Below, piece after piece: positions 53,101 to 55,016 of a stretch of 64,000 bases of DNA (the first letter of the stretch is position 1; each line of letters opens with the position of its first letter). This DNA comes from Escherichia coli (GTDB lineage Bacteria > Pseudomonadota > Gammaproteobacteria > Enterobacterales > Enterobacteriaceae). Location of the stretch: NCBI RefSeq assembly GCF_041248615.1, contig NZ_CP158426.1; one strand, written 5' to 3'. The position numbers were made by a program.

Positions 53101-55016
53101 ATTATTATTGCTGTGCGCGCGAAGATGTTTAAACTGCGGGCTGTAATTCATTGTCCGGGTTTTCTGCATGGAACTTCTTGTACTTGTCTGGCGGCAGTAT
53201 CGCTGGCCATTTATCAGTGTGATGGCGCTAAGCCTCGCCAGTGCGGCATTAGGCATTGGCTTAATTGCTTTTATCAATCAGCGTCTTATCGAAACGGCAG
53301 ATACCAGTCTGCTGGTGTTGCCGGAGTTTCTGGGATTATTGCTACTGTTGATGGCTGTCACTCTCGGATCGCAACTGGCGCTTACTACGCTGGGCCATCA
53401 CTTCGTTTACCGACTGCGTAGCGAATTTATCAAGCGGATTCTGGATACCCACGTCGAGCGCATTGAACAACTTGGTAGCGCTTCGTTGCTGGCGGGATTA
53501 ACCAGCGATGTGCGCAATATCACCATTGCTTTTGTGCGTCTGCCGGAACTGGTGCAGGGGATCATCCTCACTATCGGTTCCGCGGCGTACTTGTGGATGC
53601 TGTCGGGCAAAATGTTGCTGGTAACGGCTATCTGGATGGCAGTCACCATCTGGGGTGGTTTTGTACTGGTGGCGCGGGTGTACAAACATATGGCGACCCT
53701 GCGTGAAACCGAAGACAAGCTGTACACGGATTTTCAAACCGTACTCGAAGGGCGCAAAGAGCTGACTCTGAACCGGGAACGCGCCGAGTATGTGTTTAAC
53801 AACCTCTACATTCCTGATGCGCAAGAGTATCGCCATCATATTATTCGCGCAGACACCTTCCATCTTAGTGCCGTGAACTGGTCAAACATCATGATGCTGG
53901 GCGCTATCGGCCTGGTGTTCTGGATGGCGAACAGTCTCGGTTGGGCTGATACCAACGTTGCCGCGACCTATTCGTTGACGCTGTTATTCCTGCGTACGCC
54001 GCTGCTTTCGGCGGTTGGCGCATTACCGACGCTGCTGACGGCGCAGGTGGCGTTTAACAAGCTGAACAAATTCGCGCTCGCGCCTTTCAAAGCAGAGTTT
54101 CCGCGCCCGCAGGCGTTTCCCAACTGGCAAACGCTGGAGCTGCGTAACGTGACGTTTGCTTATCAGGATAACGCGTTTTCCGTTGGTCCGATTAATCTCA
54201 CCATCAAACGTGGCGAGCTGCTGTTTCTGATTGGTGGCAACGGTAGTGGAAAATCGACGCTGGCGATGTTGCTGACGGGCTTGTATCAGCCACAAAGCGG
54301 CGAAATCTTGCTGGATGACAACCCTGTCAGCGGCGAACAACCGGAAGATTATCGCAAACTGTTTTCGGCAGTGTTTACCGATGTCTGGCTGTTTGATCAA
54401 CTGCTGGGGCCGGAGGGGCAACCCGCTAACCCGCAACTGGTTGAGGAGTGGCTGGCGCAGCTGAAAATGGCTCATAAGCTTGAGTTAAGTAACGGGCGTA
54501 TTGTTAACCTGAAGTTATCGAAAGGGCAGAAAAAACGCGTGGCGCTGTTGCTGGCGCTGGCAGAAGAACGCGATATTATCCTGCTGGATGAATGGGCGGC
54601 GGATCAGGATCCACACTTCCGTCGTGAGTTTTATCAGGTGTTGCTGCCGCTGATGCAGGAGATGGGTAAAACTATTTTCGCCATCAGTCATGATGATCAT
54701 TACTTTATCCACGCCGACCGCCTGCTGGAAATGCGCAACGGGCAACTTAGCGAGCTGATAGGCGAAGAGCGCGATGCTGCTTCGCGTGATGCCGTTGCCC
54801 GGACGGCATAATATTACGACGCTGACCTGGCGGACTGCTGTCGCCAGGTCAATATGCTAAAAATCCCTTCATTTCTAATAACCCTATAATTAATCAACGA
54901 AATTATAATGTTTCTAAAATTAGAATATAATTTATAAACATTATTTAAATGTTGTTACTTAAGTGTTACCGTTGATGCCGCGCAAATCTCACCTGCAATA
55001 AAGCGACTAAAAGTAA

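What the first reader, a model, noticed from the sequence alone, without database searches (positions are those of the whole stretch)
54905..54944. 9-bp inverted repeat upstream of mqo
ATAATGTTT (54905..54913) and AAACATTAT (54936..54944) flank a 22-bp very AT-rich spacer in the yojI-mqo intergenic region. It could be a regulator-binding site or a structured element in the mqo control region; no matching known motif was identified from memory.
Basis: seen in the sequence. Interest (0 to 1): 0.3.

Follow-up and report, generated by a model that had tools for sequence, protein, structure and literature searches.

The report
Chance-like dyad upstream of mqo promoter
The inverted repeat is really there, in the very AT-rich DNA just upstream of the E. 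coli mqo promoter, but only its right half is conserved (as part of the already mapped promoter and ArcA repressor site), so it is most likely ordinary promoter-upstream DNA rather than a new regulatory element.

Summary
The repeat exists exactly as described: ATAATGTTT 54905-13 and AAACATTAT 54936-44. It extends to 14-nt arms with one mismatch.

Published data place it at -75 to -36 from the only mapped mqo start site (window 54980). The right arm touches the -35 hexamer. It also overlaps by 4 nt the ChIP-mapped three-repeat ArcA repressor site (54941-72).

- **Chance:** a perfect 9-nt repeat appears in 6-12% of composition-matched shuffles. The 13/14 version is rarer (0.1-1.7%).
- **Conservation:** in 24 enterobacterial mqo upstream regions the right arm lies in the most conserved block of the spacer. 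The left arm is conserved only within Escherichia. Complementarity is 9/9 in Escherichia, 4-7/9 in Citrobacter and 1-4/9 in the Enterobacter group, with no convincing covariation.
- **Left arm:** in Citrobacter the orthologous sequence is half of a strong upstream ArcA box on the opposite strand. E. coli differs by the dinucleotide TG (54909-10). That dinucleotide both destroys this box (4.7 versus 15.9 bits) and completes the repeat.
- **Not an mqo RNA element:** it lies upstream of the start site and matches no Rfam family.

Verdict: real sequence symmetry, probably not a functional unit. Low interest.

The parts
54823..54851 (+). GC-rich hairpin just after the yojI stop (TGACCTGGCG / CGCCAGGTCA, 9-nt loop). 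It has no U-tract. Context only; not part of the repeat.
   Evidence: I5; no canonical terminator; both stem sides differ in E. albertii and the stem stays complementary
54885..54912 (+). Unit U1 of a 41-bp-spaced direct repeat (TATAAT..AAC-N11-GTT). It ends in the left arm.
   Evidence: D1, 75% identity to 54926-54953
54894..54911 (-). Ortholog of the Citrobacter upstream ArcA box. It is degenerate in E. coli: 4.7 bits, rising to 15.9 bits if TG at 54909-10 were CA.
   Evidence: alignment
54905..54918 (.). Left arm: the perfect 9 nt are 54905-13, the extended arm runs to 54918. It sits at -75 to -62, contains TATAAT (54904-09) and a plus-strand ArcA-DR-like ATGTTTCTAA (54908-17, 9.1 bits). 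It is conserved only in Escherichia.
54912..54925 (.). Inner palindrome TTCTAA-AA-TTAGAA, overlapping the left arm and the spacer. The C-to-A change at 54914 in two Escherichia lineages breaks it while making the outer repeat a perfect 14/14.
54926..54953 (+). Unit U2 of the direct repeat. It coincides with the most conserved block of the spacer (invariant columns 54928-54953, -52 to -27).
54931..54944 (.). Right arm: the perfect 9 nt are 54936-44, the extended arm starts at 54931. It sits at -49 to -36. All nine core positions but one (54941) are invariant or at least 90% conserved across the 24 aligned Enterobacteriaceae (54943 is conserved in 22 of 24). It carries a minus-strand ArcA-DR-like ATGTTTATAA (54932-41, 10.2 bits).
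54941..54972 (+). Published three-repeat ArcA binding site, TTATTTAAATGTTGTTACTTAAGTGTTACCGT, at -39 to -8. The core ArcA box is 54952-69 (20.5 bits).
   Evidence: Park 2013 supplement; re-scored
54944..54972 (+). Inferred sigma-70 promoter for the mapped TSS: -35 TTTAAA (54944-49), 17-nt spacer, extended -10 TGtTACCGT (54964-72).
   Evidence: My inference from the sequence and the TSS. The simple consensus scan did not call it.
54980..54980 (+). Mapped mqo transcription start (U00096.2 coordinate 2304825, 49-nt 5' UTR).
   Evidence: Kim 2012 supplement; aerobic-only sigma-70 ChIP-seq peak at window 54983
55029..56675 (+). mqo coding sequence (malate:quinone oxidoreductase).

Best explanation
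The inverted repeat is not a discrete element. It is a dyad confined to the Escherichia lineage, inside the roughly 100-bp, 12-18% GC tract upstream of the mqo core promoter. Its two halves have different histories and roles.

**Right arm (-44 to -36).** It belongs to the most conserved block of the spacer. That block abuts the -35 hexamer, occupies the position of the proximal UP-element subsite, and is overlapped by the weak first repeat of the known ArcA-P repressor site. ArcA-P bound there occludes the promoter anaerobically.

**Left arm (-75 to -67).** It is fast-evolving AT-rich DNA. In Citrobacter the orthologous sequence is one half of a second, upstream ArcA box on the opposite strand. 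In Escherichia the dinucleotide TG at 54909-10 replaces CA. That inactivates the box and, as a by-product, makes the left arm the exact complement of the right arm.

**The tract as a whole (inferred).** It most likely acts as UP-like, easily melted, H-NS-attracting upstream DNA that tunes promoter strength. This does not depend on the symmetry.

**Shown:** the coordinates, the TSS, the ArcA site, and the conservation pattern.

**Inferred:** the UP-like and H-NS roles, and the lack of function of the symmetry itself.
For: **Position.**
- The TSS is at window 54980 (Kim 2012).
- A sigma-70 ChIP-seq peak lies at window 54983, aerobic only (Myers 2013).
- ArcA gives a ChIP peak with a three-repeat site at 54941-72. 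mqo is derepressed 31.8-fold in an arcA mutant (Park 2013).

**Conservation.**
- The invariant columns cluster at 54928-54953 and include the right arm.
- Watson-Crick pairs in the 9-nt repeat: 9/9 in 5 Escherichia, 4-7/9 in 11 Citrobacter, 1-4/9 in 8 Enterobacter, Lelliottia, Leclercia and related sequences.
- 58.9% of cells are paired and 11 of 14 pairs depart only by unpaired cells. The covariation score is low (0.024) and no better than with the 3' partners slid by 2-3 columns.
- Within E. coli the whole stretch 54899-55028 is invariant, so the arms do not stand out.

**Left arm and ArcA.**
- Citrobacter carries ATGTTATTAATACGTTGA on the minus strand. In the nine lineages that carry it, this box scores 11.7-17.8 bits; three divergent Citrobacter upstreams (S646, Awk4, NCU1) show no box of 10 bits or more there.
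- The E. coli ortholog scores 4.7 bits, and 15.9 bits after an in-silico TG-to-CA change.

**Chance level.** The 9-nt repeat is matched in 6-12% of shuffles.

**H-NS and RNA polymerase.**
- An H-NS genomic-SELEX site and RpoD holoenzyme binding are reported for this spacer (Shimada 2014).
- H-NS ChIP-chip regions flank the spacer on both sides.

**UP-like match.** 11 of 14 specified positions match the UP consensus over -59 to -38. The consensus is recalled from memory (Estrem et al. 1998); the count is my own reading of the sequence.
Against: - The extended 13/14 dyad is rarer than chance (0.1-1.7% of shuffles), and the 61-nt segment folds better than shuffles (z about -3).
- All five Escherichia species keep both arms, and two lineages carry a perfect 14/14 version. 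An Escherichia-specific operator therefore cannot be excluded.
- Escherichia sequences are too similar overall to tell constraint from recent ancestry.
- The UP-element and H-NS roles are inferred from position and composition plus spacer-resolution data. They have not been demonstrated.
- The H-NS ChIP-chip calls flank the spacer but do not cover it.
Confidence: 0.6

Rival explanations
1. The arms are auxiliary ArcA-P recognition elements. Each holds one ArcA direct-repeat-like core. ArcA-P oligomerising from the strong box at 54952-69 would extend its footprint upstream to about -75 and deepen anaerobic repression.
For: - 10-bp repeat-element scores are 9.1 bits for the left arm (plus strand) and 10.2 bits for the right arm (minus strand). 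The published repeats score 11.8 and 5.1.
- The left-arm TGTT is 44 bp (4 x 11) upstream of the TGTT of the strongest published repeat, so it is in helical phase.
- Park 2013 reports footprints of 30-60+ bp. At dctA the footprint extends to a weaker site on the opposite strand across 24 bp with no recognisable repeat.
- Citrobacter has a genuine second ArcA box at the orthologous place.
Against: - The arms point towards each other, and neither has a partner repeat at 11 bp (scores of -1.4 to 1.3 bits at the in-phase positions).
- The best 18-bp box upstream of 54945 scores 9.1 bits, which 35% of shuffles reach.
- The ArcA ChIP peak centres (window 54974 and 54984) lie downstream of the main box, not towards the repeat.
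- Park's own search listed only three repeats at mqo.
- The E. coli-specific TG is exactly what destroys the Citrobacter-type box.
Confidence: 0.15
2. The dyad is the operator of an unidentified dimeric regulator used in Escherichia. The site would be centred at -55.5 and would act as an upstream activator or anti-activator site for mqo.
For: - The 13/14 dyad is rare in shuffles.
- It is kept in all Escherichia species sampled, and is perfect in two.
- Its position is compatible with an upstream activator site.
Against: - No known motif matched on inspection.
- It is not conserved in Citrobacter or Enterobacter, where mqo and its promoter block are conserved.
- The full-text searches run here turned up only ArcA and H-NS, besides RNA polymerase, as proteins reported at this spacer.
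- A 12-22 bp gap between half-sites is atypical for simple dimers.
Confidence: 0.08
3. The repeat forms a hairpin in RNA read through from yojI (a 3' UTR or terminator element), or extrudes as a cruciform in supercoiled DNA.
For: - Predicted RNA hairpin of -11 kcal/mol, z = -3.1; as DNA -8.2 kcal/mol, z = -3.05.
- The GC-rich hairpin after yojI lacks a U-tract, so some read-through is conceivable.
Against: - The stem is almost entirely A-U, there is no U-tract, and the terminator scan found nothing.
- No Rfam match.
- It lies upstream of the only mapped mqo TSS.
- No convincing covariation and no conservation of pairing.
- A 12-22 nt loop disfavours cruciform extrusion.
Confidence: 0.03

Closest known systems
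ArcA-P multi-direct-repeat binding sites (Park et al. 2013, PLoS Genet, PMC3798270)
   Same: Both arms contain the ATGTT(T/A) core of an ArcA direct-repeat element. The repeat abuts, and overlaps by 4 nt, the documented three-repeat ArcA site of mqo. In Citrobacter the left-arm ortholog is part of a bona fide-strength ArcA box.
   Different: ArcA sites are direct repeats at 11-bp spacing. Here the two cores are inverted and 14 bp apart, each lacks a partner, the 18-bp scores are at background, and the ChIP peak is not centred on them.
UP elements of sigma-70 promoters (rrnB P1 type; recalled from Ross 1993 and Estrem 1998)
   Same: An A/T-rich tract lies immediately upstream of the -35, spanning -59 to -38. 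It matches 11 of 14 specified positions of the recalled consensus. The conserved AAA falls at -44 to -42.
   Different: No alpha-CTD dependence has been shown. The left arm (-75 to -67) lies outside the UP window. UP function does not require dyad symmetry.
H-NS-bound AT-rich promoter-upstream DNA
   Same: About 100 bp at 12-18% GC. An H-NS genomic-SELEX site is reported for this spacer, and H-NS ChIP-chip regions lie on both sides.
   Different: The in vivo calls do not cover the spacer itself. Only 2-mismatch matches to the recalled high-affinity motif were found, at chance frequency.
Palindromic operators of dimeric transcription factors
   Same: Two complementary half-sites lie in a promoter-upstream region.
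   Different: The half-site gap is long, there is no match to a known consensus, and one half-site is not conserved in orthologous promoters.

Membership tests
ArcA binding site | 18-bp ArcA box: two direct-repeat elements on the same strand at 11-bp centre-to-centre spacing, scoring like known boxes (about 9.5-21 bits) | tested here: not met
   The weight matrix was built from 114 boxes of Park 2013 Table S3, with mqo left out. The boxes over the arms score 7.4 bits (54908-25, plus strand) and 9.1 bits (54924-41, minus strand). 35% of shuffles reach 9.1. The adjacent 54952-69 box scores 20.5 bits.
ArcA binding site | In vivo ArcA occupancy centred on the site | tested here: not met
   Published ChIP-chip and ChIP-seq peak centres are 2304831 and 2304821, which are window 54974 and 54984. 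That is about 50-60 bp downstream of the repeat centre at 54925.
ArcA binding site | Additional repeat elements at 11 or 22 bp from the core box | tested here: inconclusive
   The left-arm element (9.1 bits) is in phase but 44 bp from the strongest published repeat. The in-phase positions in between score -1.4, 1.3 and 0.9 bits.
Palindromic transcription-factor operator | Both half-sites and their symmetry conserved in orthologous promoters | tested here: not met
   9/9 pairs only in Escherichia; 4-7/9 in Citrobacter; 1-4/9 in the Enterobacter group. 11 of 14 pairs depart only by unpaired cells.
Palindromic transcription-factor operator | Symmetry beyond chance for the local composition | tested here: inconclusive
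   The perfect 9-nt repeat is matched in 5.7-11.6% of shuffles. The 13/14 version is matched in 0.1-1.7%.
Structured RNA or intrinsic terminator | Transcribed, with a stable stem (G+C-rich and followed by a U-tract for terminators), or a match to a known family | tested here: not met
   It is upstream of the mapped TSS. There are no terminator-like sites and no Rfam match. The stem is A-U rich at -11 kcal/mol.
Structured RNA or intrinsic terminator | Compensatory base changes that preserve pairing | tested here: not met
   One pair shows an A-U to U-A switch, between poorly alignable genera. The covariation score is 0.024, no better than the slid controls.
UP element | A/T-rich sequence at -59 to -38 that resembles the consensus | tested here: met
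   54921-54942 matches 11 of 14 specified positions of the recalled consensus NNAAAWWTWTTTTNNNAAANNN. The sequence is and the TSS. About 8 of 14 matches are expected from composition alone (my own estimate).
UP element | Alpha-CTD-dependent stimulation of transcription | not testable with these tools
   This needs in vitro transcription with wild-type RNA polymerase and with polymerase lacking the alpha-CTD.
H-NS nucleation region | H-NS occupancy of the AT-rich tract | tested here: inconclusive
   A genomic-SELEX 'HNS' mark is given for the yojI-mqo spacer. The anaerobic ChIP-chip regions are window 54170-54695 and 55169-55498; they flank the spacer but do not include it.

The most novel reading that the evidence does not exclude
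The dyad could record, or take part in, turnover of ArcA control at mqo. An upstream ArcA box that is functional in Citrobacter would have been flipped in the Escherichia ancestor by a two-base change. That change may have been a quasi-palindrome template switch copying the right arm. It would leave a convergent pair of ArcA half-sites. These might still recruit ArcA-P or another OmpR/PhoB-type regulator in a non-canonical head-to-head arrangement and so reshape the oxygen response of mqo in Escherichia.
Probability: 0.1. Interest if true: 0.4.

Novelty: not a real feature. Interest (0 to 1): 0.15.

Why it matters
If the main reading is right, nothing new has to be added to the known picture of mqo control: a sigma-70 promoter repressed by ArcA-P, inside an AT-rich, H-NS-prone spacer. 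The finding can then be closed.

The useful by-products are comparative:
- The ArcA site architecture at mqo differs between genera. Most Citrobacter upstreams examined have two boxes, Escherichia has one strong three-repeat site, and the Enterobacter group has one repeat unit fewer.
- A single dinucleotide separates the E. coli sequence from a median-strength second ArcA box.

That makes a compact, testable example of binding-site turnover at a central-metabolism promoter.

Tried and rejected
- **Known RNA family.** An Rfam scan of 54700-55150 found only a sub-threshold ctRNA match inside mqo.
- **Canonical promoter or terminator calls at the repeat.** The scan gave only one weak minus-strand promoter-like hit and no terminator.
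- **IHF.** AATCAAC(N)TTA fits the recalled consensus in Citrobacter but is off by one base in E. coli. No peak at this locus turned up when I searched the Myers 2013 supplementary tables, which include the IHF ChIP-chip table, by coordinate prefix. Rejected.
- **Fur.** The arms contain ATAATG and CATTAT, as Fur hexamers do, but they are about 28 bp apart rather than adjacent. Rejected by inspection.
- **PhoP, CpxR, OmpR, TyrR, Fis, NsrR, RcsB, SlyA.** Consensus sequences recalled from memory did not fit. Nothing was pursued.
- **H-NS high-affinity motif TCGATAAATT (recalled).** Only 2-mismatch hits, at chance frequency.
- **The 41-bp direct repeat U1/U2 as a tandem binding module.** Identity is 75% in E. 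coli but only about 54% in Citrobacter (my own count on the sequences). Not pursued.
- **Polarising the TG/CA change with Salmonella or E. fergusonii.** No Salmonella-like Mqo appeared among the closest homologues. The two proteins at 92-93% identity turned out to have E. coli-type upstream regions. The direction of change remains unresolved.
- **Additional TSS or nucleoid-protein datasets.** No supplementary files were held, or there were no hits.
- **Literature searches for other regulators at the mqo promoter.** These returned nothing specific.

Full report
**1. Observation**

The window segment 51378-56675 encodes ada, alkB, yojI and mqo on the + strand. This was confirmed against a 100%-identical annotated E. 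coli chromosome. The yojI stop is at 54811 and the mqo ATG at 55029.

ATAATGTTT (54905-13) and AAACATTAT (54936-44) are exact reverse complements. They are separated by a 22-nt spacer with 2 G/C. The repeat finder extends the arms to 14 nt with one mismatch (54905-18 / 54931-44, 12-nt gap). Folding shows a nested dyad across 54895-54954 (RNA -11 kcal/mol, z = -3.1; DNA -8.2 kcal/mol). Local GC falls to 11.7% at 54900-54959.

How unusual is it?
- A perfect repeat of 9 nt or more, with a spacer of 40 or less, arises in 5.7% of dinucleotide shuffles of the spacer and 11.6% of shuffles of the AT-rich core.
- The 64-kb window contains 21 such repeats.
- The 13/14 form is rarer, at 0.1% and 1.7% of shuffles.

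**2. Where it sits relative to known features**

Window coordinate x corresponds to U00096.2 coordinate 2359805 - x.

- **TSS.** The Kim et al. 2012 supplement lists one mqo TSS at 2304825 (10 reads, 49-nt 5' UTR). This is window 54980.
- **Sigma-70.** Myers et al. 2013 report a sigma-70 ChIP-seq peak at 2304822 (window 54983). It is present aerobically (199.8) and absent anaerobically (-17.6).
- **ArcA.** Park et al. 2013 report an ArcA ChIP peak, an 18-bp ArcA box ttgttacttaagtgttac (20.5 bits) and a three-repeat site TTATTTAAATGTTGTTACTTAAGTGTTACCGT. That site is window 54941-54972, at -39 to -8. mqo is derepressed 31.8-fold in an arcA mutant.
- **The repeat.** It therefore spans -75 to -36. 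The right arm overlaps the first ArcA repeat by 4 nt.
- **Promoter (my reading).** For this TSS I read -35 TTTAAA (54944-49), a 17-nt spacer and an extended -10 TGtTACCGT (54964-72). The simple consensus scan did not call this promoter.
- **Alternative promoter.** Shimada et al. 2014 list a computational best-match promoter, TTGATG-16-TGCAAT (54972-77 / 54994-99). They also report RpoD-holoenzyme and H-NS genomic-SELEX binding in this spacer.
- **H-NS in vivo.** The ChIP-chip regions flank the spacer (window 54170-54695 and 55169-55498) but do not cover it. A coordinate-prefix search of the Myers supplementary tables found no IHF peak here.

**3. Conservation**

A protein-anchored scan of one genome per species returned mqo loci from Escherichia, Citrobacter, Enterobacter, Lelliottia, Leclercia and more distant genera. 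I aligned 24 upstream regions.

- **Conserved block.** The invariant columns cluster at 54928-54953 (TAA..T.TAAACA.TATTTAA...TT, -52 to -27). This block contains the right arm. Position 54941 is the only one that varies between genera: T in Escherichia, A in most others.
- **Left arm.** It is ATAATGTTT in all five Escherichia, ATAACATTT in most Citrobacter and ATTTCACAA in most of the Enterobacter group.
- **Complementarity.** Watson-Crick pairs in the 9-nt repeat are 9/9 in Escherichia, 4-7/9 in Citrobacter and 1-4/9 in the Enterobacter group.
- **Covariation.** Counted formally, 58.9% of cells pair and 11 of 14 pairs depart only by unpaired cells. The covariation score (0.024) does not exceed the controls with partners slid by 2-3 columns.
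- **Within E. coli.** Three divergent strains carry all their spacer SNPs at 54816-54898 and none in 54899-55028. K-12 differs only at 54841 and 54844. The arms are invariant, but so is everything around them.
- **Competing symmetries.** In two other Escherichia lineages a C-to-A change at 54914 makes the outer dyad a perfect 14/14. The same change breaks the inner TTCTAA/TTAGAA palindrome. Competing symmetries trading off like this is what chance symmetry in AT-rich DNA would give.

**4. What the arms resemble**

I built weight matrices from 114 ArcA boxes in Park's Table S3, leaving mqo out. The known box re-scores at 20.5 bits.

- Each arm holds a decent single repeat element. The left arm ATGTTTCTAA scores 9.1 bits on the + strand, in 11-bp phase (44 bp) with the strongest published repeat. 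The right arm ATGTTTATAA scores 10.2 bits on the - strand.
- The two elements point towards each other, and neither has a partner at 11 bp.
- The best 18-bp score upstream of 54945 is 9.1 bits, which 35% of shuffles reach.
- The ArcA ChIP peak centres lie downstream of the main box.

Scoring the orthologs gave the most informative result.
- Nine of the twelve distinct Citrobacter upstreams examined (members of the freundii group, C. amalonaticus, C. sedlakii and C. koseri) carry a strong minus-strand ArcA box, ATGTTATTAATACGTTGA, scoring 11.7-17.8 bits. Three (C. amalonaticus S646 and the Awk4/NCU1 pair) do not.
- This box aligns exactly with E. coli 54894-54911.
- One of its repeats is the reverse complement of the Citrobacter 'left arm'. 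The other is the reverse complement of the conserved TCAACG.
- The E. coli sequence scores 4.7 bits. Changing only TG at 54909-10 to CA gives 15.9 bits, which is the median of real boxes.

The two bases that make the E. coli repeat perfect are therefore the same two that abolish a Citrobacter-type upstream ArcA box. The direction of change could not be polarised. No Salmonella-like Mqo was among the closest homologues, and the proteins at 92-93% identity had E. coli-type upstream regions.

**5. Mechanism**

*Best-supported reading (confidence 0.6).* The symmetry is incidental.
- The right arm is functional as part of the conserved block at the -35 boundary, the proximal UP position and the edge of the ArcA site.
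- The left arm is lineage-specific AT-rich DNA. It is either a relic of, or a near miss to, an upstream ArcA box.
- The tract as a whole probably acts as UP-like, H-NS-attracting upstream DNA. It matches 11 of 14 specified positions of a UP consensus recalled from memory. This step is inferred, not shown.

*Rivals.*
- Auxiliary ArcA elements that extend the footprint (0.15). Precedent exists at dctA, where Park et al. saw protection reach a weak site on the opposite strand.
- An Escherichia-specific operator for an unknown dimeric regulator (0.08).
- An RNA hairpin or DNA cruciform (0.03). Against this: the position upstream of the TSS, the A-U stem, no terminator call and no Rfam match.

**6. 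Comparison, novelty and verdict**

The surrounding control region is already characterised (TSS, sigma-70 occupancy, ArcA site). The repeat as a unit fails the tests for an ArcA box, a conserved palindromic operator and a structured RNA.

I rate it as not a real functional feature, with interest 0.15. There is a small residual chance (about 0.1) that it reflects or takes part in lineage-specific rewiring of ArcA control. The experiments listed under next steps would settle this. The most direct are an ArcA-P footprint and a TG-to-CA reporter mutant.

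Noticed in passing
L010, L012, L036, L091 and other Citrobacter loci, about 145 bp upstream of the mqo ATG; orthologous to window 54894-54911: Most Citrobacter species have a second, minus-strand ArcA box upstream of mqo (ATGTTATTAATACGTTGA, up to 17.8 bits). 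Their proximal box is weaker (16.2 bits against 20.5 in E. coli). E. coli is one dinucleotide away from having the upstream box.
   Followed up: yes
window 54958-54968 versus Enterobacter, Lelliottia and Leclercia loci (L015-L035): The Enterobacter group lacks exactly 11 bp (CTTAAGTGTTA), which is one ArcA repeat unit. It still keeps a TTTAAA hexamer 17 bp upstream of the conserved TACCGT, because the upstream block contains two TTTAAA-like hexamers. Only one of the eight Enterobacter-group upstreams aligned (L025, 21.4 bits) has an ArcA box stronger than about 12 bits.
   Followed up: partly
window 54990-54997 and 55012-55018 (mqo 5' UTR): UCACCUGC is conserved out to Serratia and Pantoea. 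It is perfectly complementary to the first 8 nt of FnrS (GCAGGUGA; sequence taken from K-12 locus L086). The Shine-Dalgarno region AAGUAAG is complementary to FnrS CUUACUU. A 2024 paper lists mqo among putative FnrS targets (PMC10993149). A whole-sequence duplex energy was not better than shuffles, so only the local complementarity is noted.
   Followed up: partly
window 54823-54851: A GC-rich 10-bp hairpin lies 12 nt after the yojI stop. It has no U-tract on either strand. The stem differs on both sides and stays complementary in E. albertii (ACCTGGTGG / CCACCAGGT) and in a divergent E. coli lineage. It may be a non-canonical yojI 3' end or stabiliser.
   Followed up: partly
L085 (E. coli PEC240), insertion at window 54875-54878 (CTAA): An IS5-like ISKpn26 element is inserted about 105 bp upstream of the mqo TSS. 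It separates yojI from mqo and leaves the repeat and the promoter intact.
   Followed up: partly
window 54885-54890, 54904-54909, 54926-54931: Three perfect TATAAT hexamers lie within 47 bp upstream of the real promoter, with no mapped TSS attributable to them. They may explain RpoD-holoenzyme SELEX binding and a need for H-NS. Two of them begin the 41-bp-spaced direct repeat units U1 and U2.
   Followed up: partly
window 55027-55099, minus strand: A sub-threshold Rfam match to ctRNA_pGA1 (23.1 bits against a gathering score of 45, E = 0.021) lies inside the start of mqo. It is most likely chance.
   Followed up: no
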